Source: Azolla caroliniana (Eukaryota; Plantae; Polypodiophyta). From it: DNA of 64,000 nucleotides. Position 1 is the first letter of the stretch; each line of letters starts with the position of its first letter. The position numbers were made by a program, and so were the translations under genes. Shown piece after piece: positions 11,441 through 64,000 of the stretch. The notes beneath the pieces were generated by a model that had not been told where the DNA came from, made no database searches, and saw only the letters and a list, made by a program, of their open reading frames with translations. Location of the stretch: positions 20,522,001-20,586,000 of the forward strand of contig JBHGNT010000006.1 of NCBI GenBank assembly GCA_043228905.1, written 5' to 3'.

Positions 11441-11694
11441 AAATTCAGAATGCAGGGCAATATACTGTGTGTTGTGTATGTACATGGTGATGGAGGAGGG
11501 GAGCAGGGGTCCACCATGTCCAGAATGAACATGGAAATGAAGAAGAGATGGAGCAGCCATGACTCCATCCTGTCACCATATGTTTCTCACTTCCCCCCCC
11601 TCAGAATGGCCTCTTCTTCTTCTTCTTCTTCTTCATTCTTCCCCTGCTTCCTTCACTACATGAGCCTCCACTGATTTGTTGTATTGCTCCTACC

Positions 11695-12402
11695 ATGGAT
11701 TCTGTCGTTAACAGTTCCGATGAATCCCGACAAGCTTTCCTTGTCAGGTCAAGAAACGAAGAGCATGCGTATGATAAAGAAGAGCAGATCGATGTTGATG
11801 CCATCCTCCTCCATAGCTCGGAGGATAAGCTCTCCGCGTTGGAAGCTTTGGGAGGCGATGGCAAGGTCCCCCCTTTCTCATGGAAGAAGCTATGGCTCTT
11901 CACAGGCCCCGGATTCCTCATGAGTATCGCATACCTGGATCCTGGGAACATCGAAAGCGACTTGCAGTCAGGTGTGGTGGCCGGTTACTCTCTATTATGG
12001 CTCCTCCTGTGGGCCACTGCAATGGGTCTCGTTCTTCAGATGCTTTCGGCTCGAGTCGGAGTTGCTACAGGATGTGACCTGGCTCAGCTCTGTAGAGACG
12101 AATACCCTGTCTGGGCTCGAATTGTTCTATGGATCATGACCGAGTTTGCCATCATCGGAGCTGATATCCAAGAAGTCATCGGCAGTGCCATTGCTCTGCG
12201 CATCTTGTCCGGGGGTTACATTCCTTTGTGGGCTGGTGTGCTCATAACTGGAGTAGATGGGTAAGTACTATCTTCTGCGCACTGCCTTCACCTTCACTTG
12301 GGAGTGTGAATTACCTGTCAATTTCTTTGAAGCTAATTCCCACGAAAACTGATGCAGCTCTCTAAAGGTGTATGCACACGCACGAGAACCTGTATGTGTG
12401 TG

Positions 12403-12434
<32 letters not shown>

Positions 12435-14352
12435 TGCATGCATGCATGTATTGTATTGTATTGTATAGCATTGGATGTATGTATGTATTGCATTGTATTG
12501 TTGTATGTATGTATGTATGTATGTATGTATGTATGCATGTATGTATTGTATTGTATTGTATTGTATTGTTGTATGTCTGTCTGTATGTGTATCTATGAAA
12601 TAAAAGAGAACTAGTAAACCAAGCATTGGGGAAGTTCATTTGATGAATAGTTAAGAGCACCCATTCTTTAGTTGATATCTCACTAGGCTTGGCTTCTTTC
12701 ATTTCATTTCATTTCCTGGGTTTAGGTTTATCTTCCTTTTCCTAGAAAACTATGGGATCAGGAAACTGGAGGCCTTTTTTGGTGTTTTGATCTCAGTCAT
12801 GGCAGTTTCTTTTGCTTGGATGTTTGGCAAAGCTCAACCAGATGCAAGAGACTTAGCTGTCGGTGAGTGTGGCATGTCCGTGTGCCCCAACTCTTACAGT
12901 TCCAACTATTTATTTTGTTTGAGATAATCTCAAAACAGTGACAAATGCTTCTTTCTTTCCTATGGCTATGCAGGTCTCATTGTTCCACGTATACCTTCGG
13001 TTGCGGTCAGCCAGGCTGTGGGAGTAGTGGGTGCGTTAATTATGCCGCATAACATTTTCCTTCACTCTGCATTAGTTCAATCGCGATCGATCAATATCTG
13101 TAGCAGCTCCCATGTGAACGAAGCCTTGCGATATTATACCATCGAATCTTGCGTGGCACTCTTCATTTCCTTCTTGATCAATCTGTTTGTCGTGTCAGTA
13201 TTTGCCAAGGCTTTCTTTGGGAGTGACATCGCAGAATCCATTGGTCTAGTCAATGCAGGAGAGTATCTTCAAGAGCAATATGGTGGTGGATATTTCCCAA
13301 TATTATACATTTGGGCCATTGGCCTATTAGCCGCGGGGCAGAGTAGTACAATGACAGGAACATATGCAGGGCAGTTTGTTATGGCTGGTTTCCTCAATTT
13401 GAAAGTGAAGAAATGGATGAGGGCCTTTGTCACGCGAGCAGTGGCGATTATTCCGACAGTGATAGTTGCCCTCATATTTAATGGCTCAGATGACGAGCTA
13501 GATCGACTGAATGAGTGGCTTAACATCCTTCAGTCAGTCCAATTGCCATTTGCATTAATTCCCCTCCTATCCATGGTATCAAAAGAGCATATCATGGGGG
13601 TATTTAAGATCGGACCTTTATTACAGGTATGTGCTGTTCTTATATACATTGTAGATCTGGTTAATTTGGTGATGATGAAGCACTAATAGTAATTGGGTGT
13701 AGTTCGGAAAATGTGGCCTATGACTCTGATGAGGTTTAGACTAGGAACTATGTATGATTTTGTGACTTCAATAAACCTGGGCCAAACCAGAACGCTAAAT
13801 ATGTTACGAATTGAGAAAGAAAGAAAGAAAGAAAGATATATTAACGTCTTCTAAGACCAAAATTGGCCCATGAGTCAATTGGTTTACAACAAAAATGGGG
13901 TATTTACCCATTCATGAGAGTTGGGGATTATTAGGGAGAATGAGGTGTTTGTAGATGCTGGAACCAGGACTTCCAATGCTCATACTCGAACTCGTGGGAT
14001 TCAATGTGTCCTACATTGGAAATGTTGTAGATTTGCCTTGCCATAGCCAGGTTTTTCATTCGCGAGATTTGCTGATTGAATTGAAGACACTCACAGTATG
14101 CTAATAGTTTTTTTGTTTTTTCTGTTGCAGGCTGTATCCTGGTTAATAGCTGCATTAGTTCTGACCATTAATGTCTATCTTCTTGTGGAGTTTTGTACGA
14201 CATACATTGCCGAAACAAATACTGTGATTTCAATTCTCGCAGTCCTGACCACATTGTATATATTGTTTATCGTTTACCTGATTGTACAATCACACTCCCA
14301 GAGCCGGATTCATCTAGCACTCAAGAAATGGATCCATAGCTTGCATCGGTAG
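11695..14352 (+). CDS. NRAMP: NRAMP-family divalent metal transporter (NRAMP2/3/4-like); exons 11695-12260, 12726-12862, 12974-13626, 14131-14352; ~525 aa
   Basis: Motifs [40 protein letters not shown] and [20 protein letters not shown] introns keep the frame (1578 nt total). Few introns, as in the NRAMP2-5 clade. Confidence 0.97.
12390..12596. repeat. (TATG)n/(TATTG)n microsatellite in NRAMP intron 1
   Basis: Seen directly; composition is the reverse complement of the 10700-11440 array. Confidence 0.9.
13812..13876 (-). mobile_element. Short LINE/SINE 3'-end fragment with (TTTC)n tail in NRAMP intron 3
   Basis: The minus strand CTCATGGGCCAATTTTGGTCTTAGAAGACGTTAATATATCTTTCTTTC resembles the LINE 3' end at ~54290-54350 and the copies at 51480-51693. 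Confidence 0.55.
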
Positions 14353-17090: not shown

Positions 17091-17255
17091 GGGAATAATG
17101 CTATAAGAGCATTGAAATTTGAGAGTGAGAGGGAGGAGTCTCTCCTCTATACTCTGAAGGGAGAGGCAGAGGAAGCTGACAGGTTCAAAACAAGGAGTGG
17201 AAAAAGCACACAGGGATAAAGCCAGAGACCAACAACTCATATATTGACCCGGGGA

Positions 17256-19777
17256 ATGCCTTCCACAGCTGCCTTATGCAGCAATTTGAAGAGCAGGAGT
17301 AGTAATGCATGGAAGGAAATGAAGTTGGCTTTGTGTAAGCCCGATGCTATTGGTCCCCATCAAAGCTTTCACCTTTCTGCCCTCCGAGATGCTTTGCGAG
17401 GCCTCGATCGCCATGTTGCTCGGCCTGACCACAACACCTTTGCCCTGCTCCTTGAACAATGCTGCAAGCTAAAAGCCCTCGGCGAAGGTAAACGAGTTCA
17501 TGCACACATGTCACGACTCCGCCTCGACAACAACACTTTCCTTTCCAATTTCCTCATCAGTATGTATGGCAAATGTGGTAGTGTTGTCGACTCCCGGCTT
17601 GTGTTTGATACTATGCCTCGCAGGTAGGGGAATAATGTTCGTACTAACGTTTTGGCAATTGTTTTATGATCGATGTTTCAAAATATTCACCATTTTCTTA
17701 TGAATTTACGAGCAGTATGATCAGATTGGTATTTCATTCCGTGGTGGGTGGAATTGTTTTGTGTAGTTTTTAGGAGTAATGTTTTCAAAAGAGACATCAA
17801 GCTTACAAAATCCTTAAATTGTTTTGGAAGGTTGGCCTAAAGTTTCCAAAAAACTTGAGCATTTCCTTGTGATATTTCTCAGAAATAAGCTAAATGTTCT
17901 GGAAAGTTACAACATTAGTTCAACATTTCTATTCACTCACAGCTTCATTAGCTATAAGTCTGCTTGTCATTTATACGTTGGGAGATGGGGGAGTTCCTAA
18001 TGTCTACCTTGATCTGATTCACAGGAATGTGGTATCCTGGAATGCCATGATCTCAGTATATGCTGAACATGGACAAGGGAAGAAGGCATTACGGCTTGTT
18101 CAGCAAATGCTGGAGCAGGAGGAGGGTATGCAACCCAAAAAGAGCACTTACCTCTCAGCACTGAATGGCTGTGTTAGTCCTGAGATTTTGCCAGCACTCC
18201 GGGTTTTACATGAAAGTGTCGAGAATGGTGGATATGAGAAGGACTTAGTTATTGGGAATGCACTCATTAATGCCTATGGTAAATGTGGCAGTCCAACCGA
18301 AGCATGCAAGATGTTTCGAGAGATGAAAGTACGGGATATTATCACATGGAACTCAATGATTGCTGCCTTTGCCCAAAATGGGCATGGAAAAGACGCCCTC
18401 AGGCTATTCTATCGGATGAAGGCAAAAAACCTGGATCCTGATAAAGTTAGCTTTGTCAATCTTCTCTCTGGATGTACAAATGAAACCCACCTTGGAATAG
18501 GCAGAACAATCTATGAGCTCATTAAAGAGTATGGATATGAATGTGATGTCTTTGTCGGTACTGCCCTTATCACTATGTTTGGTAAATGTGGGTCAGTAGA
18601 GGAAGCTTATAAAAGCTTCGAAAGCATAAAGCGCCGCACCGTAGTCTCTTGGAATGCCATGATTGTGGCATATGTACAATGTGGTTGCAAGAAGGAAGCC
18701 ATTGGACTCTTCCAAAGGATGAAGAAAGAGCTTGTGAAACCTGATAAAGTTACCTTTGTTACCGCACTCGATGCTTGTACAGACCCTGCAGACTTAGAGG
18801 TGGGCAGAGGTGTCCATTCCTATGCTAGGGAATGCAAACTGGATGGTGATGTTCGGGTAAGGAGTGCACTTGTTAACATGTATGGTAACTGTGGGTGTCT
18901 TCAAGCGGCAGTCTGTGTTTTTAGGACTATCCAACCACCTGATTTAGTCTCATGGACTGCAATGATTGGAGCTTATGCTCATCTTGGGCATGGCGAGGAA
19001 GCTTTCGAACACTTCGTTAAAATGCATCAAGAGGGTATGAAACCAAACCAGGTTACTTATATAAATCTTCTCTCTGCATGTGCACTTCTGTGTGCTTTTG
19101 TGGAGGGTAAAATAATCCATGCCTGTCTCATCGAAGGGGGCTTCGATTCATTTTTAGAGGTGGCCAATGCATTGATCAACATGTATTCGAAGTGTGGCAG
19201 TGTTTATGATGCGCGGAAGGTCTTCAATAACTTACCTAATAAAAATGTGGTTTCATGGACCTCCATGCTTGATACTTATTCTTCTCATGGTTATGGGAAG
19301 GATGCACTTCAGGTATTCAGACACATGCAACAAGATGGCATAAAGCCAGATGACGTGACCTTTGTTAGTGTTCTTACAGCATGTAGCCATTCAGGTATGT
19401 TACAGGAGGCACGAGAGACATTCTTTTCTATGAGCTTAGAACATGGTATCATGCCAAAGTCTAGCCATTATGCTTGCATGATTGACATGTTTGCTCGAGT
19501 AGGAAGACTCGACGAAGCAGAACGTTTTATTAGCAACATGCCTTTTAAATGTGGAGTTGTGGAGTGGATGGCCTTGCTTGGTGCATGCAAAAGCTGTGGT
19601 GATGTTCATCGAGCTGAACGTGCAGCTGAGCAGGTCATTGCTTTGGATCCTCGGTGCTCTGGAGCCTATATCAGTTTATGGAATATATATACAGAGAACG
19701 GTAGGTTGGATGATGCAGCCCGATTGAGAACTTTGATGATGAAACATGGTGTCAAGATTGATCTCGATCACAAATGA
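17256..19777 (+). CDS. PLS-class pentatricopeptide repeat protein with E1/E2 extension and no DYW domain; exons 17256-17623 and 18025-19777; ~706 aa
   Basis: Repeated VVSWNAMI / VTFV..L.AC / NALI.MY.KCG triplets, HYACMIDMFARVGRLDEA (S2), W.ALLGACK (E1). The GT-AG intron rejoins DTMPR-R-NVVSW in frame. Probable organellar RNA-editing specificity factor. Confidence 0.93.
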
Positions 19778-21646
19778 TGTGGGAACATCGAATATAAATC
19801 ATAACCACATGAAAACAGAAGCATGAAATGCCTGCTTGAGGATTGGCAGTTCCATTGTGATACAAAATATGTGGAGAATTCAGGAGTTGGTTACCCATGC
19901 GAGGATTGAGTGACTCAGGTACTCAAAGTGGTCGGTGTTCAAAGTTGTAACTTGGATATTATCTATATCTTGAAGAGTTTGGAAAGCACAGTTGAAAAGT
20001 GATATTAAGATCATTGATATAATGTACTTCAATGAGCTTTTGCTGAGGATTTACTGCTGTTAATGGAATGAATTTCCGAATTGCCTCAATGAGTTACGGT
20101 GATGGGTGGCAAGGACCGGCTAGTTGTAACAAGTAAACTAATCAGAGGAATATGAAACAATATAAGTTGATAGGCATGCATATTCATTGAATGATTAATG
20201 ATGATAAAGCAACGTGACAACCAATTTCAATTTATCTTCATTGAATGATTAATGATGATAAACCAATGAAACCAAGAGTTTTTGGGTTTGATAAACCAAC
20301 AACCAAAATTATTAATGAAAAATGCCAAAGAGTTGAGCATTATAAAGCAAGTCTTGCCTTTACATGCAAAGTCGTATCATGAAATATCTTTTCAATGGGG
20401 TTTCTTCATATGATAAACTTATTTAAATTGAGAGGGAAACAAAACACTCATTAGAGCAAGAAAAGGAGAAGGATATGCTGCAATAAATTTTTTGTTGATA
20501 GTTTGAAAAAGGTATGATCTTTTTCCCTTTGGACAAGTGAACAACTAAATTACATGGAATGAATTAAAGGATAAAGTTATCCTGTTGTATATTCTAAGGA
20601 GTACGAAACAACATAATAATGGCCATCTTGAAAGTAAAAAAATTGGGTGTTTGGAAATATCAATGGACATGGAACAAGTTAAATACAAGAATCCTTTTCA
20701 AATAAGTGGTATATGTTGGGGATATTCAAGAGCCATGTAAAATCCATCATGGTTATGATGCATATAGTCTATAGCAAGGTGGATACTTACTACAAAGTAA
20801 GTGTTTTGAAGGGGCATCTTGCAAGAATAGCTTCCAAATTTGGGTGTTGATGAAAGTAATGACTCCTATTTCTGCATGCCGACGGTGTGATATATCTCCA
20901 TCGAAAAGTATCCCAAGTGTGGTGGGATTATAGTAAACAAAGCTAATAGACCAAAAATAAATTTCAGGACCCTTTATATCAGCTCTCAATTTTGAAGCTA
21001 ATCAACTAAAATCTAACCTTGACGTATATATATCCATCCATCCTTAAAAACTTTACTATGAGGTATCCAACATCTAGGAAACTTGAGGGGATGATGCACT
21101 AAAAGACTCTCCATATATCCAACCCTCAAGGATAGGCATGTGTCATTTGTACTTCCTATAAAGTGTTATTTGTGTCTCTATTCGTTAAATCATATGCTAT
21201 TATACTCTTTCAACATCAATAACACCTTCGTTTTTTTTTCGCGGCATTGAAGCATGAATGCCCAATAAATTTGTCTACTTCTGATTCGCCTTGTTCAAAA
21301 TGGATGCAATTTGACACAAAAACCCTTTGCTTAACATTTGCTCGGCAATCCGACCGACTAGGTTCCTTCCGACTCATGTAGCCAGAGCTCTCTCTATATA
21401 TATGTCATCATTGAAGGACATAAGAGGAGAAAGAATGTCAAGTGATGGAGGCTGTAGGAAAAGATACAGAAATGGCCGGAGCTAATACATGGTGTTGAGA
21501 GCCTAGAGAGCTGAGTGTAGACGAGAGATCTTTTGTTTGTGCATGTGTGTCAAAGCCTCTCGAGAGGTAGAGGATTCCCAGACCAGATCGAAGCAGAGGC
21601 TGTCGAATCAAAAGGTGAGTCCCACGACCCCCCCTCTGTTTCTGTA

Positions 21647-22138
21647 TTGCTTCAGATCCGGATGTTTTACAAATCTGTGTCTTATTTGTTGAATTCTGTT
21701 CCACGTTTGTGTGTGCTATATCAATATATATATTTGATGACTTACAGAGCATGCGAATGACCCGAACCATTGCATATCTATATCGTTCGCATGATATAAA
21801 ATATGCAAACCTGTGTTTGCTTCAAATCCGGGTGTTTTACAAATCTGTGTCTTATTTGTTGAATTCTGTTCCATGTGTGTGTGTGTGTGCTGTATGGGTA
21901 TATATATTTGATGATTTGCAGGGCATGCGAATGACCCGAACCATTGCATATCTATATCATTTGCATGATATAAAAATGCAAACCTGTGTTGCTTCAGATC
22001 CGGATGTTTTACAAATCTGTGTCTTATTTGTTGAATTCTGTTCCGTGTGTGTGTGTGCTGTATCGATATATATATTTGATGACTTACAGAGCATGTGAAT
22101 GAGCCGAACCATTGCATATGTATATCATTTGCATGCTA
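21647..22138. repeat. ~171-bp tandem repeat, about 3 copies, in the putative OST4 5'-UTR intron
   Basis: TTGCTTCA(G/A)ATCCGG(A/G)TGTTTTACAAATCTGTGTCTTATTTGTTGAATTCTGTTCC recurs at ~21647, ~21817 and ~21989. Confidence 0.9.
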
Positions 22139-22789
22139 TGTAAGTCATCAAACAAGGCGTGTATGTGTTGGATTTGTTGTATCCTGAATCACTTGCTTAG
22201 CAAGGGACAGGATTGATCCATGCTCAGAGATCATCATCATCATCATGAGAGGTTTCTGAGAAACCCTTTCTTTATTTTCGTTTTGTGTCGCCTTGGAAGT
22301 AGTATGCTGATGCACTGTTACCCTCTCGGCTGACGATAATGTATATCTTTTTATATATAAGATTCTTCCATCATTGTATATGGTAATGAGAAGGGAAGTA
22401 AATTATGATTTTACGGTGAGATGCAGTGCCACAGCCATAGATTTTCTTATTTGGGAATGATCCTGTGGTAACACTGTATAGAGTTTTCCTGAACAAGAGA
22501 GATGGGGAAACGCAAGGCTAAAACATGTAGAAATATCGAGCTCAAATGACAACACATGTATATATAGCTTCCACATAGACAATGTTCATAGTTCATAGTT
22601 GAAAACTACATCACAAATAAAAAAACACTGGCTGCAGTATGCTGGAGTAAAGATGAAGAGGAAAAGCTTGTCAAAAGGCTGACCAAAATTTTGAAAAAGC
22701 TCAGTTGTGAAACCATGTATGATATGCCTGCAGTATGTACCTGCACAAGTATGTTAGGTTTACATCAATTCACTATTATCGTGACTTCA

Positions 22790-34412: not shown

Positions 34413-36390
34413 TGTCATGATGTGGCGTGCTCGAGGGTGGGAAAAACCGGCGAAAAGGGGGTCAAAAATGTGCATGTGCAATGTGTGTGCACACAAAAGC
34501 GATTAATTGTGCATATGCAAAATAAAAAGGAAAAGAAAGGGTAAAAGGGAGGTATAGAAGCTCGTGCAAAAAGTAAGAGAGAGGTGAGATAAAGGGTAGA
34601 GGGGAGACAACCTATAAATTTATAGAGATAGAATTATATATTATATAAGAAAGAGTTAGTGGGTTAGTGGATGGTCACATTGACTACTAGCTAGAGATGC
34701 ACGGTTCAAATCTAGTCTTATAATGTAACGTGATTTAAGGAATTTTATTCCTTTTTCATTGAAGACAAATTTGGCGACCCCTCCCTTCTTTTTTTCCTAT
34801 AAAAGGAGGTCGAGGGGGGCTCATTTGGAAGGACGTTTTGGGAGGAGGAGACTATCACCAATTTTCCTTCGAAGCTCTTCATCTCCTTATTCACCACTTT
34901 TCTTCATCTCATACCCCTTCATCCCCCCATCGCCACGTGCTCGTGAGCCCAAGCTTCGTTGGCTCGACGTTGCTCCTCCCCATTCGTCGTTGCAAGCCCG
35001 TGTGCTTGCCGTTTGGGTGGTCGTGATTCGTTGGGATTGGCATTTTGGTGGTGCTCGTGTGTTCGTCTTCGCCGTGTTCGGTTTTGCCTTGTCTCTAAGG
35101 GCATTTAATATTTATGTTTTGATTGAGCTTGTGGTTAACTATAAGTTGCCATTGTAAACAAAACCCTATTTTATAAACGGTCCTCTTGCATTAGAATCAA
35201 ACACGTATTTAACTCTTTGGTCAATATCGTTCGTGTTTCTTTCTCTCCTTCTTTCTTTATTCGTGTCTTGTACGTTCAGTCGTCTTGTGACGAGGGGACC
35301 GTTCGGGCTTGCCCATGCACCTCTCCTCCTCATAAAGGCATACGAGCATTTTGTGCGTGTGTTTTGTGTCTTCCTCGTACGTTCGACGTCTTGTCACGAG
35401 GGAGCGTTCAGGCGCGCGCCCATGCACCTCTCCTCCTCATAAAACCGTACGGACATTCGTGTTTGTGTTATCGTCCCCTTGTGCGTTCATGTTGCGTGCT
35501 CATCTTGCTTGTACTCGTTTGGTCACTTGGCTCGTACGGTGATCTCGGAAGGTCGACGAGTCGTGATCAACGAGAGCCACCGGCCTCACAAAACAAAAGG
35601 GGAACGAGACCTTGCTCGGGAAGGGGTGGGGAAGTAGTATTGTCATAAACCAAACCTCGTGTCTTCTTTATCCCTTGAGTACTCCCTAGTCCGAAACCCC
35701 CGTGGTCCCGCCCAAGTAACACGCGCGCGCGAAACTTCGTGACATAAATTGGTGAACCCGACGTGAAAGGGCGGCAAGGGAGAACCAAGATGCGAGGAGG
35801 AGAACTCGTTGAAGCGATGGCGGCGGCGGCGGACCGCTTGGTAAATGCCCGAGAAGGCATCACCGGTCTAGACCGGGCCATAGAGACGATGGTTAGCACA
35901 ACGGAGCGGTTCAATGGAAGAGATATCATGAGCTACTTGGATGCCTATAAGGCCGAAATGCTTATGCGAAACGTCCCCGAAGATAGGCGGCTAACCAGAT
36001 TCGCTAGAGTGGTAACGCCGAGTATCCACGCGGAGGTATTCGAGATCCAAGCGAACTGTTGCAATTGGGTGGAGTTCGAAGAAAGACTCCTCGAGAAGTA
36101 CGGCCTTGATGACTCACTCAGAATTTCGAAAAGGGATCTAATGGAGTGGGTTGAGCTTCCCGGCAAGGGGAGAAATACTATGGTACTTTTACAAGAAGTT
36201 GAGAAGCGCTTCGCGCGACTCTCGACGCTCGATAGGATGGTGCTTGACACAAGCAAGGTCCTGCTATTCATAAAGACTGTTGATGCACGAGACCGAGAGA
36301 AGGTGGGGTCCCTCCTCGAAACTGATGATGGGCTCACGACGGATTGGGCTATGGTAAAACGGGTTTGTAGCCGCTTCAATAAGAGAAGGG
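34413..36390 (+). mobile_element. tRNA-Trp-primed Gypsy, 5' part: LTR 34413-35744, PBS, gag N-terminus (35790-36390)
   Basis: TGTCATGA..CGTGACA LTR with CCTATAAAAGG. PBS TGGTGAACCCGACGTGA is complementary to the plant tRNA-Trp 3' end. Gag is clearly homologous to 61070-61627. Confidence 0.9.
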
Positions 36391-44225: not shown

Positions 44226-44811
44226 TGTCGTGAAGATTTTCTGCAACAGTGTGAAAATTGTGTGCAACAAACGAAATCAAGAAGGTGCAATGTGCATGTG
44301 AGAAAGGGGTGAAGGCCACACGCATATGTTAGCATGTTGTAAATAGTACTGAAATGAGAATCGTAAAAGAAATGCTAGATGTAAAGTTAAACATGTGCAC
44401 ATGTGATGTGCGCTCAATTGTAAATATAAAATATAAGACTAAAGCCTATATTTTCTTTTCATATTCAGTATTTTGTAGGAAGCAAACATATAGAAACCGT
44501 GGGCACAAAACCATGGTTTTTGCATGGAGAGGCCTATAAAAGCCTATACTTGGGCTTGTGTAAGGGAGGGAAGTGATGTATGTAAAAAAAGAAACTCTTA
44601 ATCAAAGATCGGAGTTATCCTAATGGTGATGTATCTTGTCTCGTAAAATTAAAGTCAAGGGTTCAATCTCTCTCTCTCTCTCTCTCTCTCTTCATCCATC
44701 TATCTATCTTCAATACTTTCTCGCTTATGCTGCTAAAAACATTGAATCCTTCCAGTCCAGGACCCCGGTGGTCTCGCTTCATTTCGCAAACACACGAGGA
44801 TTTCCTCGACA
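44226..44811. mobile_element. Solo LTR nested in the Copia gag
   Basis: TGTCG..CGACA termini; 4-bp TSD ACGT/ACGC; internal CCTATAAAAG; removing it restores HLAE(S/N)VYFHM. Confidence 0.88.
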
Positions 44812-45309: not shown

Positions 45310-46535
45310 CTCTTTATCATTCATTGGTGCCACATTCTCCAAGACCGTTTTGTTAAGTGTCAAATTCTTAACAATAACTTCATCCAATTGTGTCCTCCAC
45401 ATGTCGAGGAATGTCTCCACACCTTCATTTTCTTTTAATTTTAGAGAAGTGAGTTTCTTGAGATGAGTTAGTACCTGTTTTGGTAAGTCAATATGTGAGT
45501 ATTTCATCTTTATAATTTCCCACATTGCATTTGCTAATTGTTGATTTTCCAAAATGTGAAGTTGCTTGTTTGCAACATTCAATATAATCTCTGATTGTGC
45601 AAAATTGTCATTAGCACCAGGATATTTTTCAAAGCCTTTGATGACATCCTACAGATCTAGTCTTTTGAGATAACTCTCCACTTTTACTCTCCAAGCGTGG
45701 TAGTTTGTATGATTTAATTTTTCGAGGCGGATTGATCAACACACCATTGTAGTCACCAATTGCCTTGGTGGTGTAGTTGTTGTTGGAGTGTCATGTGATG
45801 TAACACTTGGTGTTGGGCTCGCCATTGAATTATGAGAGAGAGATTTTCTCACTAAGTGACCTTGTTGTCTGGATCAAGAGAACCAAGGAATTGGTATGCA
45901 ATCTTCGTGATTTCTAAGGCTTGAGTGCTATCTGATACCATGTGTTAATAGAAGAAACAAAAGATAAGAGCATACAATGAATGATGAAATGATGGAATTG
46001 TATTAAGCGGAATAATGATTCTAACACTTATGATGAGTGTTTACACAAAACTTGGTGTTAAACCATATTTGTACTAATCACAAATGTGTCTTTTCATGAA
46101 GAGGTGTCTCATCATGTTGGTGCTATTTGATACCATGTGATAATAGAAGAAACAAAAGATAAGAGCATACAATGAATTATGAAATGATGGAATTGTATTA
46201 AGCGGAATAATGATTCTAACACTTATGATGAGTGTTTACACAAAACTTGGTGTTAAACCATATTTGTACTAATCACAAATGTGTCTTTTCATGAAGAGGT
46301 GTCTCATCATGTTGGTGTCTTTTCACATTATGCAACTCCAAGAGTTGCATTTTTTATTCATTAGTAAATAATTAATTAATGTTCGCATTTATTATTGTTC
46401 ATAACGACAATTTAAAAACGTCGTTAAGATAGTTAAAACTTCATAATAATGTTACATAATGTATAAAGGTCATTCATATATTTAAGGAATATTGCAAAAA
46501 TGTCCCAAAAAACATTAAGTTGTTCCTTTTAATCA
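45310..46535 (-). mobile_element. Truncated Copia 5' end: LTR (~45941-46535), tRNA-iMet PBS, gag; includes a 195-bp tandem duplication spanning the PBS/LTR junction
   Basis: PBS TGGTATCAGA at 45931-45940 (minus); gag LEKLNHTNYHAWRVKVESYL...AMWEII; duplication 45925-46119 / 46120-46314. The outer LTR end is approximate. Confidence 0.75.
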
Positions 46536-48927: not shown

Positions 48928-49462
48928 TGTTCAAGTGTGAAACCAGAGTATGGAAGAACTGAGTCTGAGACTGTTAGGTCCAAAACCCTAAACTCTGTCT
49001 GTGTCTGTGTCTGTGACTGTGACTCTGTGCTCTGTGGATGTGTATGTAGGCCCCTCCACCATGAAACAAAAGAAAGAAACCCTATTTAATGGGTTATACA
49101 GTTAAAAATAAGGTTAAGCAAAAAACAAAACTGATGTGTGTATGTCTACTCTACTTAAATGCTGTTTTCAGTTTTAAGTTCTCTGCTTCTCTGTGGCCCC
49201 AATCAAAACCAAAATACCAGAAACTGTGTTTGATTTGCAAAACAGTTTCTGTAAATGCAATGACTGCATGTTGATGATGAATGCATGCATGCATGCAACT
49301 TTAGAAATCGAAGCTATGATTATTGTCATGGTGATGATTGATTGATGATGATGATGATGAAGAAGACGAAGATGATGATGAAGATGATGATGATGATGAT
49401 GGCGATGGCGATGATTCTTTGATGATGATATGTAAGCAGTAAGAGTACAGTGCCATCGCTTC

Positions 49463-50931
49463 ATGATGATTGATCATCATGTCCATCGTCTGTCTATTCA
49501 AGGCGAAGAAGAGCAGGGAGAGTGCAGGCCTCGCAAGCAGAAAAGCTTAGATCGATCCATGGCCATGGCCTCCTTCTCCTTCTCCTCCTCTACCCTTCAT
49601 GCTACTAGCCAAGCCCATCACCGCGACTGCAGAATTCCCAGAAAAGTTTTATTCACCAATTCTCCCCCCATGGATCAAGACCTAGTAGCCATGGATATGG
49701 CGACTAGCCCTCCTGCCAATCGTATCATTCTCCACTCCACCTCTTCTTCTTCTTCTTCTTCTGCTTCTGCTTCTGCTTCTTCTGCTTCCTCCTCCTCCAC
49801 GTCTGAGGAAGACGAGATCCGCCATACCTTCTGCCGCACCCTTCCCACATACAATTCGCTCACTGTAAATCGCAGCGGCGGCGGTTCTTCCTCCTCCTCC
49901 TCCTCCAAAGAATTCCTGCTTACCAAGCTGGAGAAGCGCTCTGATCTGCACCTCCGCTCCGCCTCCATGAGAGAGCCCTGCGCAGCTCTGTGCAGGAGGA
50001 GCTCTGTGAATGCGGATCAGGACCTGGAATCCACGAACTTAGAGGCTGTCAAGCGCGTGCTGCGATCTGCATACCTCAGGCCATCTTCTCTGACGGGGCA
50101 AAACGGTAGTCCCTGTAGCACCACCATGGCCAGGTATAATTCTGTGTGGGAGACATCTGTGCGGAAGAGTCCAGCCGAGAAGAGATGGGAGGAGGCAGAA
50201 GAGATGGAGATGATGAAGATGAAGAAGATGCAGGAAGAGGAGGAGATGGCGAGGTCCACGAATGAGCGGCGGCAGAGGCGGCGCCGCCTGCAGAATCCAG
50301 CCGGGCTTTTGAATCAGAGATCGCAGTCCATGAGATTGGACAACCATATCTCACCTGGCCTTAGCGGCTGCGCGCAGATGAAGCAGAGAGACTGGAGATG
50401 GGAAGCAAAATCCGAGGCAGGACATGGCGGTGCGAGAACAGCAGCTGCTGCAGTGAAAGAACAGGAAGAGGAGAACACTCTAGGCTCGCAGCAGCAGCAG
50501 AAGAAGAAGGGAGGAGTAATCATGGCGATGGATCCAAGAAGTGGCGGCGATGGAAGGGATGCTGCAGGGATTAAGGATGGATACGCGGTGGCGCAGCAGG
50601 GAGCAGCGGGACAGAGACAGCAGCGATCGTCTGTGCTTCGGGCCATGTCCATGTCGATGCGAGCAGGAGAAAGCTCGGCGTCTGATCCGGCTATGGGGTA
50701 CATTGTCCTGGGATGTGCGATCTGTGGGGCGGCGGAGGCTCCTCTGGTTGGGCCACCAGTAGTAGCAGGCGCCATGGCTCCTGCTCTTCCTCCTCCTCCT
50801 CCTCCTCCGCCGCCGCCGCCGCCGCCAGGTTGCGGGCACTGCACATGCAGGTGTGGGAATCAAGAGCAGGCCAAAGATCACAGCCATGGCGTTCTTCCTG
50901 CAGAAGAGGCGATGGCGGCAGCACCATCAAT

Positions 50932-50964
<33 letters not shown>

Positions 50965-51088
50965 GGCGGCGAAATCAGGGGTGAAGAAGAAGGCAGGGGG
51001 TAGTCCAAGCGTCGGCGGCGGGAGGCTTCTGGGGGCCTGCCGCCGCATGCTGGGGCAGCTGGCCTTCAGATCGAAGCGGATCCCATGA
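49463..51088 (+). CDS. Intronless low-complexity protein of unknown function (up to 541 aa; true start uncertain)
   Basis: Long GC-rich ORF whose trinucleotide runs (poly-S, poly-P, poly-Q) stay in frame; no TE domains; family not recognised. Confidence 0.75.
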
Positions 51089-55172: not shown

Positions 55173-55660
55173 TTTAATTTTCAGGTGACTACAAGCAGAA
55201 CATATGGAGCTGCTAATATGAGATTATAGATAAGATATGATTATAGGGGTCCATGTAGACAAATTCTCCAGGCCAGCCAACTTGGTATTGCTCACAAACA
55301 ATAAATCCCTTTTAACTCTGATTGCAACATTGGTTTAATTTTCAGGTGACTACAAGCAGAACATATGGAGCTGCTAATATGAGATTATAGATCAGATATG
55401 ATTATAGGGGTCCATGTAGACAAATTCTCCAGGCCAGCCAACTTGGTATTGCTCACAAACAATAAATCCCTTTTAACTCTGATTGCAACATTGGTTTAAT
55501 TTTCAGGTGACTACAAGCAGAACATATGGAGCTGCTAATATGAGATTATAGATAAGATATGATTATAGGGGTCCATGTAGACAAATTCTCCAGGCCAGCC
55601 AACTTGGTATTGCTCACAAACAATAAATCCCTTTTAACTCAGATTGCAACATTGGTTTAA
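55173..55660. repeat. 161-bp tandem repeat, 3 near-identical copies
   Basis: TCAGGTGACTACAAGC at 55181, 55342 and 55503; only about 2 substitutions seen among the copies. Confidence 0.95.
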
Positions 55661-56669: not shown

Positions 56670-56976
56670 CTACTCATCGCCACCGGACTCTGATCCAGCG
56701 GCCCCATCAACCTTGTTGTGCTTCTTGGCGTATCTCTGATTTCTCAGGAACTTGGGATCCATCTGCAAATACAGAGATGTGGGAGAAAGGTAGAAAACCC
56801 CAAGAATCAAATATCAACAACGGGAAGAGATCAAAGAGGGGGTAAAGATGGATGGGGAGGAAGGAGCAACTTACCCCTTTGGTGGAAGTATATTTGGTCT
56901 TCTTCACCTTCTTGATGCCATTCCTGTGGGCCTTGTAAGACTGATTGTGGGCGGTGTGGTTCTTCGACTTCGCCAT
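56670..56976 (-). CDS. RPL29: 60S ribosomal protein L29 (eL29); exons 56976-56875 and 56762-56670; 64 aa
   Basis: [23 protein letters not shown]...STKG|[17 protein letters not shown]; GT-AG intron. Confidence 0.98.
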
Positions 56977-57060
56977 AGCTGTAACTGTGGGGTGGGTGGG
57001 TAGCGTCTGGGAGGAAATGGGGGAGAGAAAGGCAGGCACAGGAAACAGAGAACACAAGAC

Positions 57061-57071
57061 CTAACCCTAAA
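57061..57071. promoter_or_regulatory. Telo-box-like motif near the RPL29 5' end
   Basis: TAACCCTAAA, one mismatch to AAACCCTAA; telo-boxes are typical of plant ribosomal-protein genes. Confidence 0.5.
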
Positions 57072-58687
57072 CTTGAAGAAGAAAATGCTTTCACACTGAG
57101 TGCCCGGACATTGAAAACATGTGTCCGGCTTTGGCCAACATTACGTCGAAACCCCTATTTTACGTTAATGTTTGCCTCCAAGAGAGAGAGAGAGAGAGAG
57201 AGACTGCCCTGTCTTGTTAGGCTTGAAGTCTACAGAGATGTGTGTGCCTGCCTCATTAGGTTCTTCTATGGAAGTCTGATCGACCTGGTTTTTGGGATCC
57301 TGCATGGTTCTCGATCTGCCGGGGGCTCCTCGAATTGTTGTCGACTACTGCGACCAAGCAAGAGACACCAGGTCGTAAGCGTGATGAGCAGTCTCGAGTT
57401 TGAGCATCTCTATAAGGCTCGGCACTAGTTCGAGTGCTCGAACGCATTGTTCTTGGTTTGGCCAACATTACGTCGAAAGCCTTGTTTATGTTAACATACA
57501 CATATACGTTGTCGCGTTGTTACGCGCGTGCGTGGAGAACAAGGTGGAACCACCGGGGTCTTGGACCGAGAAATAGCTGAGAAGGAGGAGAACGGAAAGA
57601 CAACGGACACACTTGCACACGCACAGAAACGGGAGCACACAGGAATCACAGTCCAACAACACAGCAAAATGAGACGACTAGAAGTCCGAGTATATGAACA
57701 CGTATGTATATATATATATCAAGACGGTTACAACTAATAGGCCGGCAAGGCGAACACCGACGCCTGTTCACTCACACATAGAAGAGCGAGATGGAGACTC
57801 TACCGGAAGCACAAGGGCGTTCCACAAAGCAGAGTCAGCCTCCCGAAAACCTACGCAAAATGGCTATGGAGAGTGGCAGAGGAGAAGGGCTCGGTCCCAG
57901 TCCGGCAGCACTTCGTCCTCTCTAACGCGCGATACCCTTCCCATTCCTCTCCCTCTCTTTTATAGCCCAAGGAGGGAGGCCGTTATCATCCGTTACATCA
58001 CATTAATTCTCTATCCTTTCGGATAGAGATACACCTCGATTCTCTCCCTATTGACTGCGTGTTACCTAGGATTTCACCTCAACCGACTTGTACCTACCTA
58101 CTTACCATACAACGAAAAGTGTGCTCGCATGTAAGGGCCGGTTTACACATGCTAAACTCGGTTTCCGCCTAGGGACGGTTTTCTTCACGACATCTGCCCC
58201 CACCTAACCGCGCATCCACTAGTAGGCGCCAAAATTGGGCTCTTGATGGAGAAAACCGGTCCATGCTTTACTCCTCGTCTTTCGGATCGTCATCCGCCTC
58301 GGACCGCCCATCATCGTCGTCGATGCTTTCCAAATCCGGCTCGCGCTCATATCGTTTCTTAAATGCTTTGACCCTCTTCCCCGCTACCGGTATTGCCATC
58401 CTCGTACCGTCGAGCTCCGCAAGATGGCAGGTCCCGTTGTCGTTGGCGCCTGTCAACACGTAAGGCCCGAACCACCTCCTTGCAAACTTCCGCATTGCCA
58501 TGTGCTGGTTGTCGAGGCTGTTGTCATACACTAGGACCCAGTCGCCTTCCTCAATCTTCTTCAGTCGCAGTTGGTGAGTCCGGTCAAACCGCCCTTTGTT
58601 CTTCAACCTTGCCAATCGAAGCTTCTCCGCGGCTCGTTCCACGTCCTCCGGCCTTCGCTCGAGCTGTCGAATCTATGCCGCTAGCAG

Positions 58688-59147
58688 CTCCACTCCACCT
58701 CTTCTTCTTCTTCTTCTTCTTCTTCTGCTTCTGCTTCCTCCTCCTCCACGTCTGAGGAAGACGAGATCCGCCATACCTTCTGCCGCACCCTTCCCACATA
58801 CAATTCGCTCACTGTGAATCGCAGTGGCGGCGGTTCTTCCTCCTCCTCCTCCAAAGAATTCCTGCTTACCAAGCTGGAGAAGCGCTCTGATCTGCACCTC
58901 CGCTCCGCCTCCATGAGAGAGCCCTGCGCAGCTCTGTGCAGGAGGAGCTCTGTGAATGCGGATCAGGACCTGGAATCCACGAACTTAGAGGCTGTCAAGC
59001 GCGTGCTGCGATCTGCATACCTCAGGCCATCTTCTCTGACGGGGCAAAACGGGAGTCCCTGTAGCACCACCATGGCCAGGTATAATTCTGTGTGGGAGAC
59101 ATCTGTGCGGAAGAGTCCAGCCGAGAAGAGATGGGAGGAGGCAGAAG
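58688..59147 (+). pseudogene. Captured copy of 49730-50201 (coding fragment of the 541-aa gene)
   Basis: Near-identical sequence: 3 substitutions plus microsatellite-length differences, counted by eye. Confidence 0.97.
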
Positions 59148-61898
59148 TCCGTTACAGAAGTCGGCGATGACTTCGTACATCCCTTCCGAACATACCGGAA
59201 TCGTCCGGTCCTCTTTAAGGCCTCCTCCGACCACCTCTCGTAATTGTCCCAAGGTGTCGTCGAAAGAGACCGCCTCCACGGCTCCGTTGATTTCCTCTCC
59301 AGGGCCGAGGACTCCGCATGCCCGAAGTCGCTCCTCCGCCCTCTTCTTCTCCTTACCAACAATGCCGACAATCGTACAACCCCCGCTGTCAGAGAACCAA
59401 AATTTCCTACCTATAGTACAAGTCTTCTTCCCTACTGTACATTTGTGGGGTTTTTCCGGGGTGTCCGGACTATCGCGGCCCCACGCCTTGATAGCCCTCT
59501 CTAAATATCCCCTCGGGTTTCGCCACTGAGGGTCTCGCGGTTACGCTCATGGTTTGGTCGCACCGTCAAGAACTGGACCGAGTGACGCTCGTCCTGGCTC
59601 TTGACTCTTGCATAGGCCGAACCGTTGTCCAACACCTTGGTCTCCATCCGTGCCGCCATGATGTATGGTTCTCCTAGTATAACCGGATGTGAGGACGTCT
59701 CCTGCACGAAGAAGTGTTGGTCAATTTCGACATTGCCGATTTTCACCCGTACGTTCGGGCATGCTCCATGTAGTTCTTCCGTGGCGCGCGTCGTTGCCCG
59801 TATTTTCTAGCCGTGTTTGGTGTTGATCGGCCATTTCCCCTTTTTGTAGAAGTCCATGGACATCAAGTTGATTTCTGAACCGTGGTCCACCAACGCCACC
59901 ACCGGCTCCTGGACATCCCCGACCTTAACAAGGGTCTCCGTGGTCACTCTGGCCTAGTGCGGCCTCGAATAGTGGCTCTCCGCCAACTCGTCTTCTAGCG
60001 CCATGTCCTCTATGTGCGTCGTTCGCACTTCCACCGGTTTCTCCGGCTCTAGCTCTATCGACAGCCTCTTCCTCTTCACCAAGTCTACGACGGAGTCGTG
60101 GAACTCCTTCTTGGCGATCCCGAGCACTTCCTTCAGCGACAACTCCACTTTGCTGTCGAGGATACGTTCTTCCAAGACCTTTCGCAGGTCCGTGGTCCTT
60201 TCGATTTCCGTGCTCAACCGGTACCTAGCCTTCTTGGCTTTATCCAGTGCGCCGGTCGCACCGGCCTCATTCTGCCTTTGACCGAATCAGGTCTCGTACC
60301 GTTGCGAGGGCCCGGCCCCTCCGGTTTTACCTACTCGCTTGTCTTCCACCAGAGCCTCGTAGTTCTAGCATGCGGCTTCAACGAAGCCCGTCTTCTCTTC
60401 GACCGGGTCACTCCACCCGGTTACCTCCCGGACCCGTTTTTCCGCGCGGTCTGCTTCTTCTTTCCTTAGCCATGCGCCGGCGAGGCCTTCCAGCATCAAC
60501 GGCCAGAATCTGGCTTCGTTCATCTTCCATGCCTCACCACCTCCGACCCGGATCCCAACCGACGCCGAGTAGTGGACGGTCTCCGCGTGGCGAGCCGCCG
60601 CTTTTTCCATTAGTCATTTCATACCCCCTTGTCTGACATTCAAGTCCAGGGCCCTTCGGGTCTCGTTAGCGTGCACCCGACCGTTCCATAGGTACACCAC
60701 GTTGGCTCTCATTCCCTCGGTGAAGTCCCCGCAGTCCTTCCGAACGTGGCCGACCGCGTCGCACCACAAACACTGGTTTCGAGCCAGAGGCCTTCGGTCA
60801 TGGGCCTGTTCACCGCCGTCCCTCCGTGCCTGTGCAATCTGGAGGTCCTTTACCATCCTAGTCAGCTCCTCTAGAGCTACTCCTCCGGACGAGCCTTTGA
60901 CCATGCCGGTCGAAGTCGATCCGGTCTCGAGCCAGTCTCGGGTCTCTTCCCTTCGCGCTGGCGGGGTTGGCTCGAGTTTCCTTGTTGCTATAGAGCCCGC
61001 CCCTATTGATCCTTTATCGACCCACTCTCGCCGTTTGTCGAAACGGCCACTAACTCTCTGCACCACGGCCTAGTCAGTCGTCAGCCCGTCATCAGTCTCC
61101 AGCAGGAGACCCACTTGCTCTCGGTCCCTCGCATCCACCGACTTAACGAACAACAGGACGCGACTTGTGTCTAGTACGGTCCGGTCGAGCGCCGAAAGAC
61201 GCGCGAAGCGTTCTTCAAACTCCCGGAGGAGCACCGACGCGTTTCTCCCCTTTTCGGGGGTCTCTACCCATTCCATGAAGTCCCGTTTCGAGAGCCGAAG
61301 CGCGTCATCAAGCCTGTATTTTTCGAGGAGCCGACCTTCAAACTCTTCCCAGGTCTGGCTCTCAGCCCGTACCTCGAGCACCTCCGCATGGATGCCCGGC
61401 ATCGCCAACCGAGTGAATCCGGTCAGTTGCCTTTCTTCCGGAATGTCTCTCATTACCATCTCGGCCCGGTAGGCCTCCAAATAGCTCGTGGCGTCCTTCC
61501 CACCGAACTGGCCTATCGTGCCGACGACTGCTTCAATAGCCCTATCGAGGGCGCCTGCACCTTCGCACGCACTCACTATCCGATCCACAGCCGAAGCCAT
61601 GGTTTCCGCGAGATCCGACCCCCTCATCTTTCTATTCCTCTGCCGCCCGTTTCACGTCGGGTTCACCAAATATGTCGCGTTGTTACGCGCGTGCGTGGAG
61701 AACGAGGCGGGACCACCGGGGTCTTGGACTGAGAAATAGCTGAGAAGGAGGAGAACGGAAAGACAACGGACGCACTTGCACACGCACAGACATGGGAGCA
61801 CACAGGAATCACAATCCAACAACACAGCAAAACGAGACGACTAAAAGTCCAAGTATATGAACACGTATGTATATAAATAAATAAATAAATAAATATAT

Positions 61899-62195
61899 GG
61901 GTTGCAGCATGGGAATGGGAACAATTAGTTATGTCCTTGACATAGCTAATTAGCTATCTAAAAAGCTACATGTAATTTGTATATTTTGGCAATTTTAGGG
62001 ATGATTAGAATTTGAACTCAAATAAAGACTAGCTAAACGGTGGAACATAAATGGTAATATTTCCATCCCCATCATAAATGATACATATCTTTAAGATCTT
62101 CCTACGAAAAATTAGCTATAAAAAAAACTATTTAGCTATGGTCAATTTACCAGCTAAATAGCTATAATAGTGTTTCCATTCGCATGCTTTCACCC
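61899..62195. mobile_element. MITE inserted in the (TA)n tract of the 5' LTR
   Basis: Absent from the sister LTR; imperfect ~28-bp TIRs GGGTTGCAGCATGGGAATGGGAACA / TGTTTCCATTCGCATGCTTTCACCC; TA-repeat flanks. Confidence 0.85.
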
Positions 62196-64000
62196 ATATA
62201 TACTATATATATATATATATATATATCAAGACGGTTACAACTAACAGGCCGGCAAGGCGAACACCGACGCCTGTTCACTCACACATAGAAGAGCGAGATG
62301 GAGACTCTACCGGAAGCACAAGGGCGTTCCACAAAGCAGAGTCAGCCTCCCGAAAACCTACGCAAAATGGCTATGGAGAGTGGCAGAGGAGAAGGGCTCG
62401 GTCCCAATCCGGCAGCACTTCGTCCTCTCTAACGCGTGATACCCTTCCCATTCCTCTCCCTCTCTTTTATAGCCCAAGGAGGGAGGCCGTTATCATCCGT
62501 TACATCACATTAATTCTTTGTCCTTTCGGACAGAGATACACCTCGATTCTCTCCCTATTGATTGCGTGCTACCTAGGATTTCACCTCAACTGACTTGTAC
62601 CTACCTACTTACCATACAACAAAAAGTGTGCTCGCGTGTAAGGGCCGGTTTACACACGCTAAACTCGGTTTCCGCCTATGGACGGTTTTCTTCACGACAA
62701 TGTGTGCCTGCCTCGTTAGGTTCTTCTCTCAACGACTGACCAACTTGCTCTGTGGGATCCTGCATGGTTCTCGATCTGTCAAGGCCTCCTCGAATTGTCG
62801 TCGACAACTACGGCCAAGCACGACACACCTAGGTGTAAACGTGATGAGCAGACTCGAGATTGAGCATTCTGATGAAACTCAACACTAGTTCAAGTGCTCA
62901 AACATTTAAGCATGTGTCCTGCTTTGGCCAACATTACGTCAAAATTCTTGTTTACATTAACGTCCACTGAGAGACTACCTCATTAGGCTTGAATCATAGT
63001 TGTGCCTCCCCTGTTGGGTTCTTCTATGGATGACATATCAACCTAGTTTTTGGGATCTTGCATCTATCAGGGGCTCCTCAAATTGTTGTCAACAATTGCT
63101 ACCAAGCAAGAGACACCTTGGCGTAACGCAAAGAGCATTCTCGAGATCGAGCATCCAATGAGACTTGGTGCTAGTTCTTCTTACGATCTTGATCTCTAGA
63201 CTATACATATAGAGGAGCATTGATTGAGACTCGATGGTCAAAAGAATAATGGATCAATCTTATCTTATAAGTCATCACACCCAAAAAAAGTAGTCGTATC
63301 GAAAAACAAGTAGCATTGAGAATAACGCAATAGATTATGAGATTCCACATGGTATCAAATAGATTGATGTCTTGATTATTAACGTTAACATCAAGAGTTC
63401 AAGTATGAGGCATTGCAACTCATGTGTTATCTTCTCTATAAAGAGTGATCTTCTTTTTTCTTTTTTTCCAAAAAAAGATACTACATTAGTATTAGAAAAT
63501 GCCATAAGGCTAAACATACAAGATATACCACAGATCTCCAATATTTTTCTAAATTCTAATTTCTAACCATCGGCTTAAATAAATACTTTGGTGTTGAGTA
63601 AAACCACTCCACCTTACCAAAAAGCCATCTATAAAATATACCTATGTCCCAGATGGCATGAAACTCCAAGCGCTCAAGCTCCGCTTGGTGCATATTACCT
63701 TTTATACAATCCAACAACCTTATGAGATTATGCACAATCTCTATCCAAATTCCCGAATTTATTTGGGCAGGTCTTTCAGTCACATTTTGAAATACCTTCA
63801 AACATCAAGCCTTCCAAATATACCAATTTGTAATACTACTTACCAATTGCCATATTTGAGGTTTATCAATTTGTATTTGTGGATTCAAAGGTATCAATTT
63901 TTTTTCCATCAAACCATGTCTCATCACAATAGCATCTACAACCTCCTCTTGTTCATATACCATAGGTTTATCATGTACCACTGGCCATAATACTGCACCC

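What the first reader, a model, noticed from the sequence alone, without database searches (positions are those of the whole stretch)
58688..59147. LTR retrotransposon whose pol core is replaced by an antisense copy of the neighbouring gene
Seen: inside the Gypsy element (57510-62699, minus strand) the sequence goes from just after the protease to the integrase C-terminus (ELLAA*IRQLERRPED). The gap holds 460 bp copied from 49730-50201, the CDS of the gene ~9 kb upstream. The copy has the same chromosomal orientation as the donor, so it is antisense to the element's transcript. By eye it differs from the donor at 3 substitutions (~0.7%), while the two LTRs differ at ~24 of ~680 sites (~3.5%). 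The left junction has CTC microhomology. Inference: the capture post-dates insertion and arose in situ by double-strand-break repair using the nearby gene as filler template, not by RT template switching. With LTRs, PBS and PPT retained, the element could express antisense RNA/siRNA against the donor gene and could be mobilised in trans.
Basis: partly seen in the sequence, partly recalled or inferred. Interest (0 to 1): 0.85.

Follow-up and report, generated by a model that had tools for sequence, protein, structure and literature searches.

The report
Repair patch inside a dead retrotransposon
A plant jumping gene has lost 2.7 kb of its copying machinery and carries in its place a 460-base copy of a gene 9 kb away, likely patched in during repair of a DNA break after the element had landed; this is a clear example of a known process, and any silencing effect on the gene is untested.

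Summary
Confirmed. Window 58688-59147 is a copy of 49730-50201, lying antisense inside a Phygy-like Gypsy element (57510-62699). It differs from the donor by 3 substitutions and 12 nt of microsatellite length. Undeleted relatives show that it replaces exactly 2,712 bp (RT, RNase H, integrase core). The joins have 3-4 and 2 bp of microhomology and no extra bases. A 4-bp NCGN target-site duplication (ACGT/ATGT) shows that the LTR pair comes from one insertion. All 24 LTR differences lie at C/G sites. At that rate the insert should carry about 8 changes of its own; it carries 1-2, so capture likely post-dates insertion. One difference is an allele seen in other samples, so the template may have been the homologous chromosome. 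The insert is not amplified. No contig bridging a junction was seen, but one sample's depth fits an extra copy. This matches repair-mediated duplication or gap-filling capture (Pace 2009; Tan 2021). An RPL29 gene lies between donor and element, so the donor is not the nearest gene. Antisense or siRNA action and trans-mobilisation are untested. The scan had not noted this on other DNA.

The parts
49436..51088 (+). Donor gene: single open frame of 550 codons, low-complexity protein with no known family
   Evidence: homologues P0001/P0002 keep the frame; 6 hits among 1.84 billion representatives; no Pfam match above cut-off
49730..50201 (+). Donor segment that was copied (472 bp, inside the open frame)
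56875..56976 (-). RPL29 gene, first coding exon; lies between donor and element, about 530 bp downstream of the 3' LTR on the same strand
   Evidence: Pfam PF01779 E 1.4e-16; translation
57506..57509 (.). Left copy of the 4-bp target-site duplication, ACGT
57510..58192 (-). 3' LTR (683 bp, TG...CA)
58193..58207 (-). G-rich polypurine-tract-like sequence (11 of 15 purines)
   Evidence: a similar tract precedes the LTR in L001, L007, L013, L027
58268..58687 (-). Integrase C-terminal remnant, with one premature stop next to the junction
58688..59147 (+). The captured 460-bp copy, replacing 2,712 bp of pol; microhomology at 58688-58690 (3-4 bp) and 59146-59147 (2 bp)
59148..59540 (-). Surviving 5' part of the second (pol) frame, upstream of RT
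59501..61630 (-). gag-protease frame, broken by six premature stops not shared with relatives
61651..61668 (-). Primer-binding site, 18 nt; tRNA-Trp type (the isotype is recalled, not from a call)
   Evidence: the same 18-mer is listed as a gypsy-mapped small RNA (miR894) in PMC5846777 Table 3
61673..62699 (-). 5' LTR
61893..62201 (.). MITE-like insertion in the TA tract of the 5' LTR (terminal inverted repeats 27 of 34 alike)
62700..62703 (.). Right copy of the target-site duplication, ATGT (one C-to-T change at the CpG)

Best explanation
A Phygy-like Gypsy element carries a 460-bp copy of a gene 9 kb away in place of 2,712 bp of its pol region, likely because a double-strand break inside the already inserted element was patched by copying that gene. 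Inferred steps: the element inserted at an ACGT site and decayed under methylation. A break and resection then removed RT, RNase H and the integrase core. One end likely primed on the donor gene through 2-4 bp of microhomology, copied 460 nt and rejoined the other end (synthesis-dependent strand annealing or polymerase-theta-type end joining). The template was either the cis copy, which has since changed at 50107, or the allele on the homologous chromosome. The product is most likely an inert, single-copy relic. If it affects the donor at all, the likely route is TE-derived small RNA over the shared 460 bp.
For: Shown: the copy and its orientation. Deleted length is 2,712 bp in 2 of 2 loci that span both junctions. 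28 of 31 loci extending past the right junction continue into native pol, and 0 of 39 hold insert sequence. Microhomology at both ends with no untemplated bases; P 0.01-0.03 for a summed length of 5-6 by random joining. The TSD ACGT/ATGT fits the Phygy 4-bp NCGN rule, and 4 of 5 relatives' LTR flanks are NCGN. 24 of 24 LTR differences are at C/G sites, 0 at 327 A/T sites; the insert is expected to carry 8.0 changes and shows 1-2 private ones (P 0.003-0.014). Neighbouring pol DNA carries 69 private changes in 1,664 sites. Depth over the two bins wholly inside the insert is 13-69 against thousands to hundreds of thousands on element DNA in 4 of 4 runs, so it is not amplified. The X1 donor-segment contig has depth 62.8 against 44.5 +/- 4.4 for 7 other contigs, and 60-67 is predicted for one extra copy on one haplotype. 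Proximity, deletion and microhomology are the published signature (PMC2671141 and PMC8277862, passages).
Against: No contig bridging either junction was listed, although the left junction was skipped as a repeat and the tables were cut. X2 shows no depth excess (15.5 against 13.4-16). Contig depth is, by the tool's own statement, no copy number. Charging all 3 differences to the insert weakens the age test (P 0.04; Fisher 0.17). The G at 58816 also occurs in a diverged copy in X3, which could mean an older template or another allele. The deletion (2.7 kb) and distance (8.5-9 kb) exceed the typical vertebrate cases (1-15 nt; under 5 kb). The locus before capture was not seen directly.
Confidence: 0.75

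Rival explanations
1. Assembly or chimeric-read artefact: a piece of the other haplotype's gene was joined into the element.
For: No junction-bridging contig was listed in runs X1-X4 or X12. All three differences are synonymous (about 0.03 by chance) and one matches an allele of X2 and X3, as another haplotype's gene copy would. The window carries upstream alleles not seen in the main contigs of X1-X3.
Against: It needs two false joins, both at microhomologies shared with independent relatives, plus the loss of 2,712 bp. One insert-private change is a CpG C-to-T, like the element's own decay. X1 depth fits an extra copy. An X1 contig runs from the left flank 22 nt into the LTR (under the 31-nt bridging bar). 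Junction contigs next to a very high-copy repeat may be pruned by assembly (inference).
Confidence: 0.1
2. Capture by reverse-transcriptase template switching to a co-packaged donor RNA, followed by insertion near the donor, with later gene conversion keeping the copy similar.
For: Microhomology also fits template switching. The segment lies within one exon, so an RNA origin cannot be excluded by introns. LTR elements do capture genes (204 of 6,200 Sireviruses; 10.1101/777037).
Against: It requires landing 7-9 kb from the donor by chance. The insert would be as old as the LTR pair (8 changes expected, 1-2 seen). No amplified insert-bearing subfamily was seen. The copy is antisense to the element's RNA, so it would need an antisense donor transcript (inference).
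Confidence: 0.05
3. Old capture by the same repair route, near the time of insertion, with the insert shielded from methylation or refreshed by conversion from the donor. The two G letters would then be ancestral and the donor would have changed.
For: G at 59053 is shared with X2 and X3; G at 58816 is shared with the diverged X3 copy. Two donor-side synonymous changes in about 120 synonymous sites is about 1.7%, close to the LTR per-lineage rate.
Against: A at 49867 is present in 4 of 4 near alleles seen (window, X1, X2, X3). Near alleles differ from each other by about 2 substitutions in this segment, so an allele difference explains the pattern without age. DNA right beside the insert is decayed (stop 15 nt from the junction).
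Confidence: 0.1

Closest known systems
Repair-mediated duplication by capture of proximal DNA (Pace et al. 2009, PMC2671141; passages read)
   Same: Single-copy insert that interrupts a TE, donor nearby on the same chromosome, deletion plus microhomology, no polyA tail; the authors also suggest templates on the homologous chromosome.
   Different: Vertebrates; donors mostly under 5 kb away and deletions of 1-15 nt. Here a plant, 8.5-9 kb, a 2,712-bp deletion and a coding donor.
Single-copy Pack-TIRs made by transposition-independent gap filling (Tan et al. 2021, PMC8277862; passages read)
   Same: Post-transposition capture into the inside of a TE; 56.9% of parental copies within 15 kb; median 2-bp microhomology; single copy.
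   Different: DNA transposons of animals, with small gaps (median 4.6% of the TE). Here an LTR retrotransposon losing about 38% of its length.
Filler DNA at spontaneous deletions in maize (PMC2686159; passages read)
   Same: Deletion with filler copied from nearby DNA, in a plant.
   Different: The fillers cited there are 1-131 bp; this one is 460 bp and sits in a retrotransposon.
Gene capture and epigenetic conflict in maize TEs (Muyle et al., 10.1101/777037; abstract, section list and passages read)
   Same: LTR element holding an exon fragment, with possible siRNA cross-talk confined to the captured region.
   Different: Cross-talk was measured there; none could be measured here. A section heading there states that capture does not affect expression of syntenic donors.
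Phygy non-chromovirus Ty3/gypsy lineage (Neumann et al. 2019, PMC6317226; passages and one supplement row)
   Same: 4-bp NCGN TSD, tRNA-Trp-type PBS, compact body.
   Different: Undeleted length is about 7.1 kb against 7.66-9.97 kb; RT phylogeny was not tested.

Membership tests
Repair-mediated duplication / gap-filling capture | Insert interrupts a TE whose relatives lack it | tested here: met
   28 of 31 loci continue into pol at the right junction; 0 of 39 hold the insert
Repair-mediated duplication / gap-filling capture | Donor close by on the same chromosome | tested here: met
   8.5 kb from donor end to insert start; within Tan's 15 kb, beyond Pace's 5 kb cut-off
Repair-mediated duplication / gap-filling capture | Deletion and/or microhomology at the breakpoints, no polyA, no insert-specific TSD | tested here: met
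   2,712-bp deletion, 3-4 and 2 bp microhomology, no extra bases
Repair-mediated duplication / gap-filling capture | Only one other copy in the genome | tested here: inconclusive
   No genome held. Depth excludes amplification. At 85% likeness only one contig covers 49916-50117 in X1 and in X2, but contigs merge close copies.
Repair-mediated duplication / gap-filling capture | Capture later than TE insertion (orthologous TE without the insert) | tested here: inconclusive
   The mutation load says later; the orthologous undeleted allele was not seen
Phygy (Ty3/gypsy non-chromovirus) | 4-bp NCGN TSD | tested here: met
   ACGT/ATGT; 4 of 5 relatives' LTR flanks are NCGN
Phygy (Ty3/gypsy non-chromovirus) | tRNA-Trp primer-binding site | tested here: inconclusive
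   An 18-nt PBS is present and conserved in L002, L006, L014. The tRNA isotype is recalled; a scan for the tRNA found nothing.
Phygy (Ty3/gypsy non-chromovirus) | Gypsy domain order RT-RNase H-integrase filling a short internal region | tested here: met
   Met in relative P0025 and by the 2,712-bp span in L013 and L027; this copy itself lacks these domains
Phygy (Ty3/gypsy non-chromovirus) | Length 7.66-9.97 kb | tested here: not met
   About 7.1 kb before the deletion; hence 'Phygy-like', not filed as Phygy
Phygy (Ty3/gypsy non-chromovirus) | Placement in the Phygy clade by RT/RH/INT phylogeny | not testable with these tools
   No reference domain set held; RT is deleted in this copy
Gene-capturing, amplifying non-autonomous LTR element (Bs1-like) | Captured fragment spread in several copies by retrotransposition | tested here: not met
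   Depth inside the insert 13-69 against thousands or more on element DNA in 4 of 4 runs
TE with siRNA cross-talk to its donor gene | Small RNA and methylation over the captured part of the donor | not testable with these tools
   No RNA holder on record; only contigs were available

The most novel reading that the evidence does not exclude
A single repair event built a new cis-linked antisense or siRNA locus: an LTR promoter driving 460 nt complementary to a lineage-specific gene 9 kb away, copied from the homologous chromosome and still segregating. Haplotypes with and without it would form a natural experiment on how TE gene capture starts silencing a donor, and would show that gene-carrying LTR elements can begin by DNA repair rather than by reverse transcription.
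Probability: 0.12. Interest if true: 0.6.

Novelty: new member of a known kind. Interest (0 to 1): 0.3.

Why it matters
The 2026 review of plant gene capture (PMC13317346, passages read) describes transduction, abnormal template switching and transduplication, and its main text has no occurrence of 'double-strand break' or 'filler'. This locus is a well-resolved case where a gene fragment likely entered a plant LTR element by DNA repair after insertion, the route already described for vertebrate TEs and animal DNA transposons. It is a caution for surveys that read every gene fragment inside an LTR element as an RT product. As a single locus it does not change a model, and the regulatory claim is what would raise its value.

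Tried and rejected
No whole genome was held, so genome-wide copy and paralogue searches were not possible. No RNA holder was listed. X12 (RNA by guess only) had low-depth contigs on parts of the donor gene and none over 49916-50117; this is not used as evidence. No junction-bridging contig was listed; the left junction was skipped as a repeat, and 2,857 and 73 loose-end rows were not shown. I first read the flanks as having no TSD (5-bp TACGT against ATGTG), which would void the LTR clock; I rejected this after finding the Phygy 4-bp NCGN rule. I suspected a templated insertion at the right junction because CAGAAGTC occurs twice; L002 and L010 show that the stretch is native. DNA pattern scans found nothing. 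Donor function stayed unresolved: no Pfam match above cut-off, Atlas hits under 0.9 for homologue P0002, and 0 of 8 exact look-ups found. CpG content gives no sign of donor methylation (observed/expected 0.65 against 0.73 in the rest of the frame) but has little power. In one search, 15 of 25 fuzzy LTR-start matches were dropped by eye as internal chance matches; 5 were preceded by the PPT and 5 by flanks. The 'tRNA end replaces PPT' families noted elsewhere in this genome do not apply here, because a G-rich tract precedes this LTR. Paper searches showed no report of this locus, but most subscription papers are not covered. Supplements of the bioRxiv preprint were not seen.

Full report
Observation. 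Window 58688-59147 matches 49730-50201 on the same strand over 460 columns. There are three clean substitutions and 12 nt of microsatellite length difference; a fourth mismatch inside the microsatellite depends on the alignment. The donor segment lies in a 550-codon open frame on the plus strand. Two homologues keep that frame, only 6 related proteins were found among 1.84 billion representatives, and no family matches. It is therefore a lineage-restricted, low-complexity gene of unknown family. It is not the adjacent gene: an RPL29 gene lies between donor and element.

The element. The LTRs are 57510-58192 and 61673-62699 on the minus strand; the 5' LTR carries a 344-nt insertion in its TA tract, bounded by inverted repeats 27 of 34 alike. 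An 18-nt PBS and a G-rich tract are present. The flanks show no 5-bp TSD, but they read ACGT and ATGT. Neumann et al. (PMC6317226; passages and one supplement row) give Phygy elements a 4-bp NCGN TSD in 100% of cases and a tRNA-Trp PBS in 81%. Four of 5 relatives' LTR flanks are NCGN (15 of 25 fuzzy matches were dropped as internal and 5 were PPT-preceded). I read the site as a 4-bp TSD with one CpG change, so the two LTRs come from one insertion. The undeleted length would be about 7.1 kb, below the Phygy range, so I call the element Phygy-like. Named protein relatives are from the liverwort Riccia. The host was not identified; an unchecked note of this scan calls the genome a fern.

What was lost and how it is joined. 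A metagenome scan returned 39 related loci. Thirty-one extend past the right junction: 28 continue into native pol, and 3 have other interruptions (L022, L028, L029). None of the 39 holds insert sequence. The two loci that span both junctions give the same span, 2,712 bp, covering RT, RNase H and the integrase zinc finger and core of relative P0025. At the right junction, 13 of 13 loci at 79.8% identity or more share 2 bp with the start of the insert, and L002 and L010 show that the bases before the junction are native. At the left junction the overlap is 3 bp against L027 and 4 bp against L013. Random joining gives a summed overlap of 5 or 6 with P 0.03 or 0.01. These are relatives, not this copy's parent, so the lengths are estimates.

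Timing. The LTRs differ at 24 of 683 sites. All 24 are at C/G sites, 22 are transitions, and none lies among 327 A/T sites, which is the pattern of methylation decay (established knowledge). At those context rates one lineage of the insert should carry 8.0 changes. Laying public contigs polarises the three differences. G at 59053 is also the donor letter in X2 and X3, so it is an allele difference. T at 58825 is a CpG change seen only in the insert. G at 58816 is absent from 4 of 4 near alleles but present in a diverged copy in X3. The insert therefore has 1-2 changes of its own (P 0.003-0.014); charging it all three gives P 0.04, and a context-blind Fisher test gives 0.06-0.17. The surrounding pol DNA has 69 private changes in 1,664 sites where at least three relatives agree, and seven premature stops against about three expected (P 0.03), so it is at least as decayed as the LTRs. 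All three insert-donor differences are synonymous (about 0.03 by chance), and near alleles differ from each other by about two substitutions here. This is why the homologous chromosome is a plausible template; X1 and X2 show signs of two haplotypes. A cis template with one later donor change fits as well.

Is it real, and has it spread? Depth in the two bins wholly inside the insert is 13-69, against thousands to hundreds of thousands on element DNA, in 4 of 4 runs from 3 samples: it has not been amplified. No junction-bridging contig was listed, but the tool skipped the left junction as a repeat, cut its tables, and warns that contigs show presence only. In X1 the contig over the donor segment has depth 62.8, while seven other contigs along the gene have 37.1-49.7 (mean 44.5, sd 4.4). 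One extra copy on one haplotype predicts 60-67. X2 shows no excess (15.5 against 13.4-16). An X1 contig also runs from the left flank 22 nt into the LTR. Contig depth is not copy number, so this is a hint, and I leave 10% for an artefact.

Mechanism. Shown: the copy, the deletion, the microhomologies, the TSD, the low mutation load and the lack of amplification. Inferred: a break inside the resident element, resection, microhomology-primed copying of the nearby gene and rejoining. Capture by reverse transcriptase would need a chance landing 7-9 kb from the donor and an insert as old as the LTRs. Orientation does not decide the matter, since Sirevirus captures show no bias.

Function. Nothing here tests antisense RNA or siRNA; no RNA holder was listed. 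The element is decayed and probably silenced (inference), its 5' LTR is interrupted downstream of the TATA-like box at 62471, and it encodes no RT or integrase. Small-RNA cross-talk over the shared 460 bp is possible by analogy with maize (10.1101/777037; abstract, section list, passages), where marks stayed within the captured region. Trans-mobilisation is possible in principle because the PBS, PPT and LTR ends remain, but it has left no trace in the runs laid.

Comparison and verdict. The locus works like repair-mediated duplication (PMC2671141, passages), gap-filled single-copy Pack-TIRs (PMC8277862, passages) and maize filler DNA (PMC2686159, passages). It differs in the host element, the size of the deletion and the length of the filler. 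A 2026 review of plant gene capture does not use the terms 'double-strand break' or 'filler' in its main text, which gives the case some value as an example. It is a new member of a known kind. Interest 0.3.

Noticed in passing
window 56875-57964 (minus strand): The 3' LTR, with a TATA-like box at 57964, points at the RPL29 gene about 530 bp beyond the LTR end; read-through could reach this gene in sense.
   Followed up: partly
window 61893-62201: MITE-like insertion with 34-bp imperfect inverted repeats inside the TA microsatellite of the 5' LTR; no other copy in the window or in the 39 loci.
   Followed up: partly
window 57099-57509 and 62700-63177: The element sits inside an old tandem repeat with units of about 260-330 bp, 69-80% alike.
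   Followed up: no
window 61651-61668: The PBS equals the small RNA annotated as miR894, which maps to gypsy elements in a conifer (PMC5846777); probably a tRNA 3' fragment (recalled).
   Followed up: partly
window 59501-59503: The stop ending the gag-protease frame is shared by 8 of 8 relatives checked, and pol lies in a separate overlapping frame, so this family has a two-frame polyprotein layout.
   Followed up: no
window 35688-36377 and 44753-44811: A second, more distant element of the same clade (68% to the gag region) on the plus strand, and a short LTR-like fragment.
   Followed up: no
L022:861: A related LTR is inserted into pol of a relative about 24 nt past the position of the window's right junction, at an NCGN site.
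   Followed up: no
window 49805-50509, run X3: X3 (organism B) holds a second, diverged copy of the donor gene (39 differences in about 310 bp), like a homoeologue of a hybrid or polyploid.
   Followed up: partly
window 55173-55660; 45925-46317; 21642-22139: Near-perfect tandem repeats of 161 bp x3 (99%), 195 bp x2 (98%) and 174 bp x3 (88%).
   Followed up: no
window 11563-13686 and 17220-19777: Open frames that look like an NRAMP metal transporter and a PPR protein (labels recalled from the translations, not scanned).
   Followed up: no
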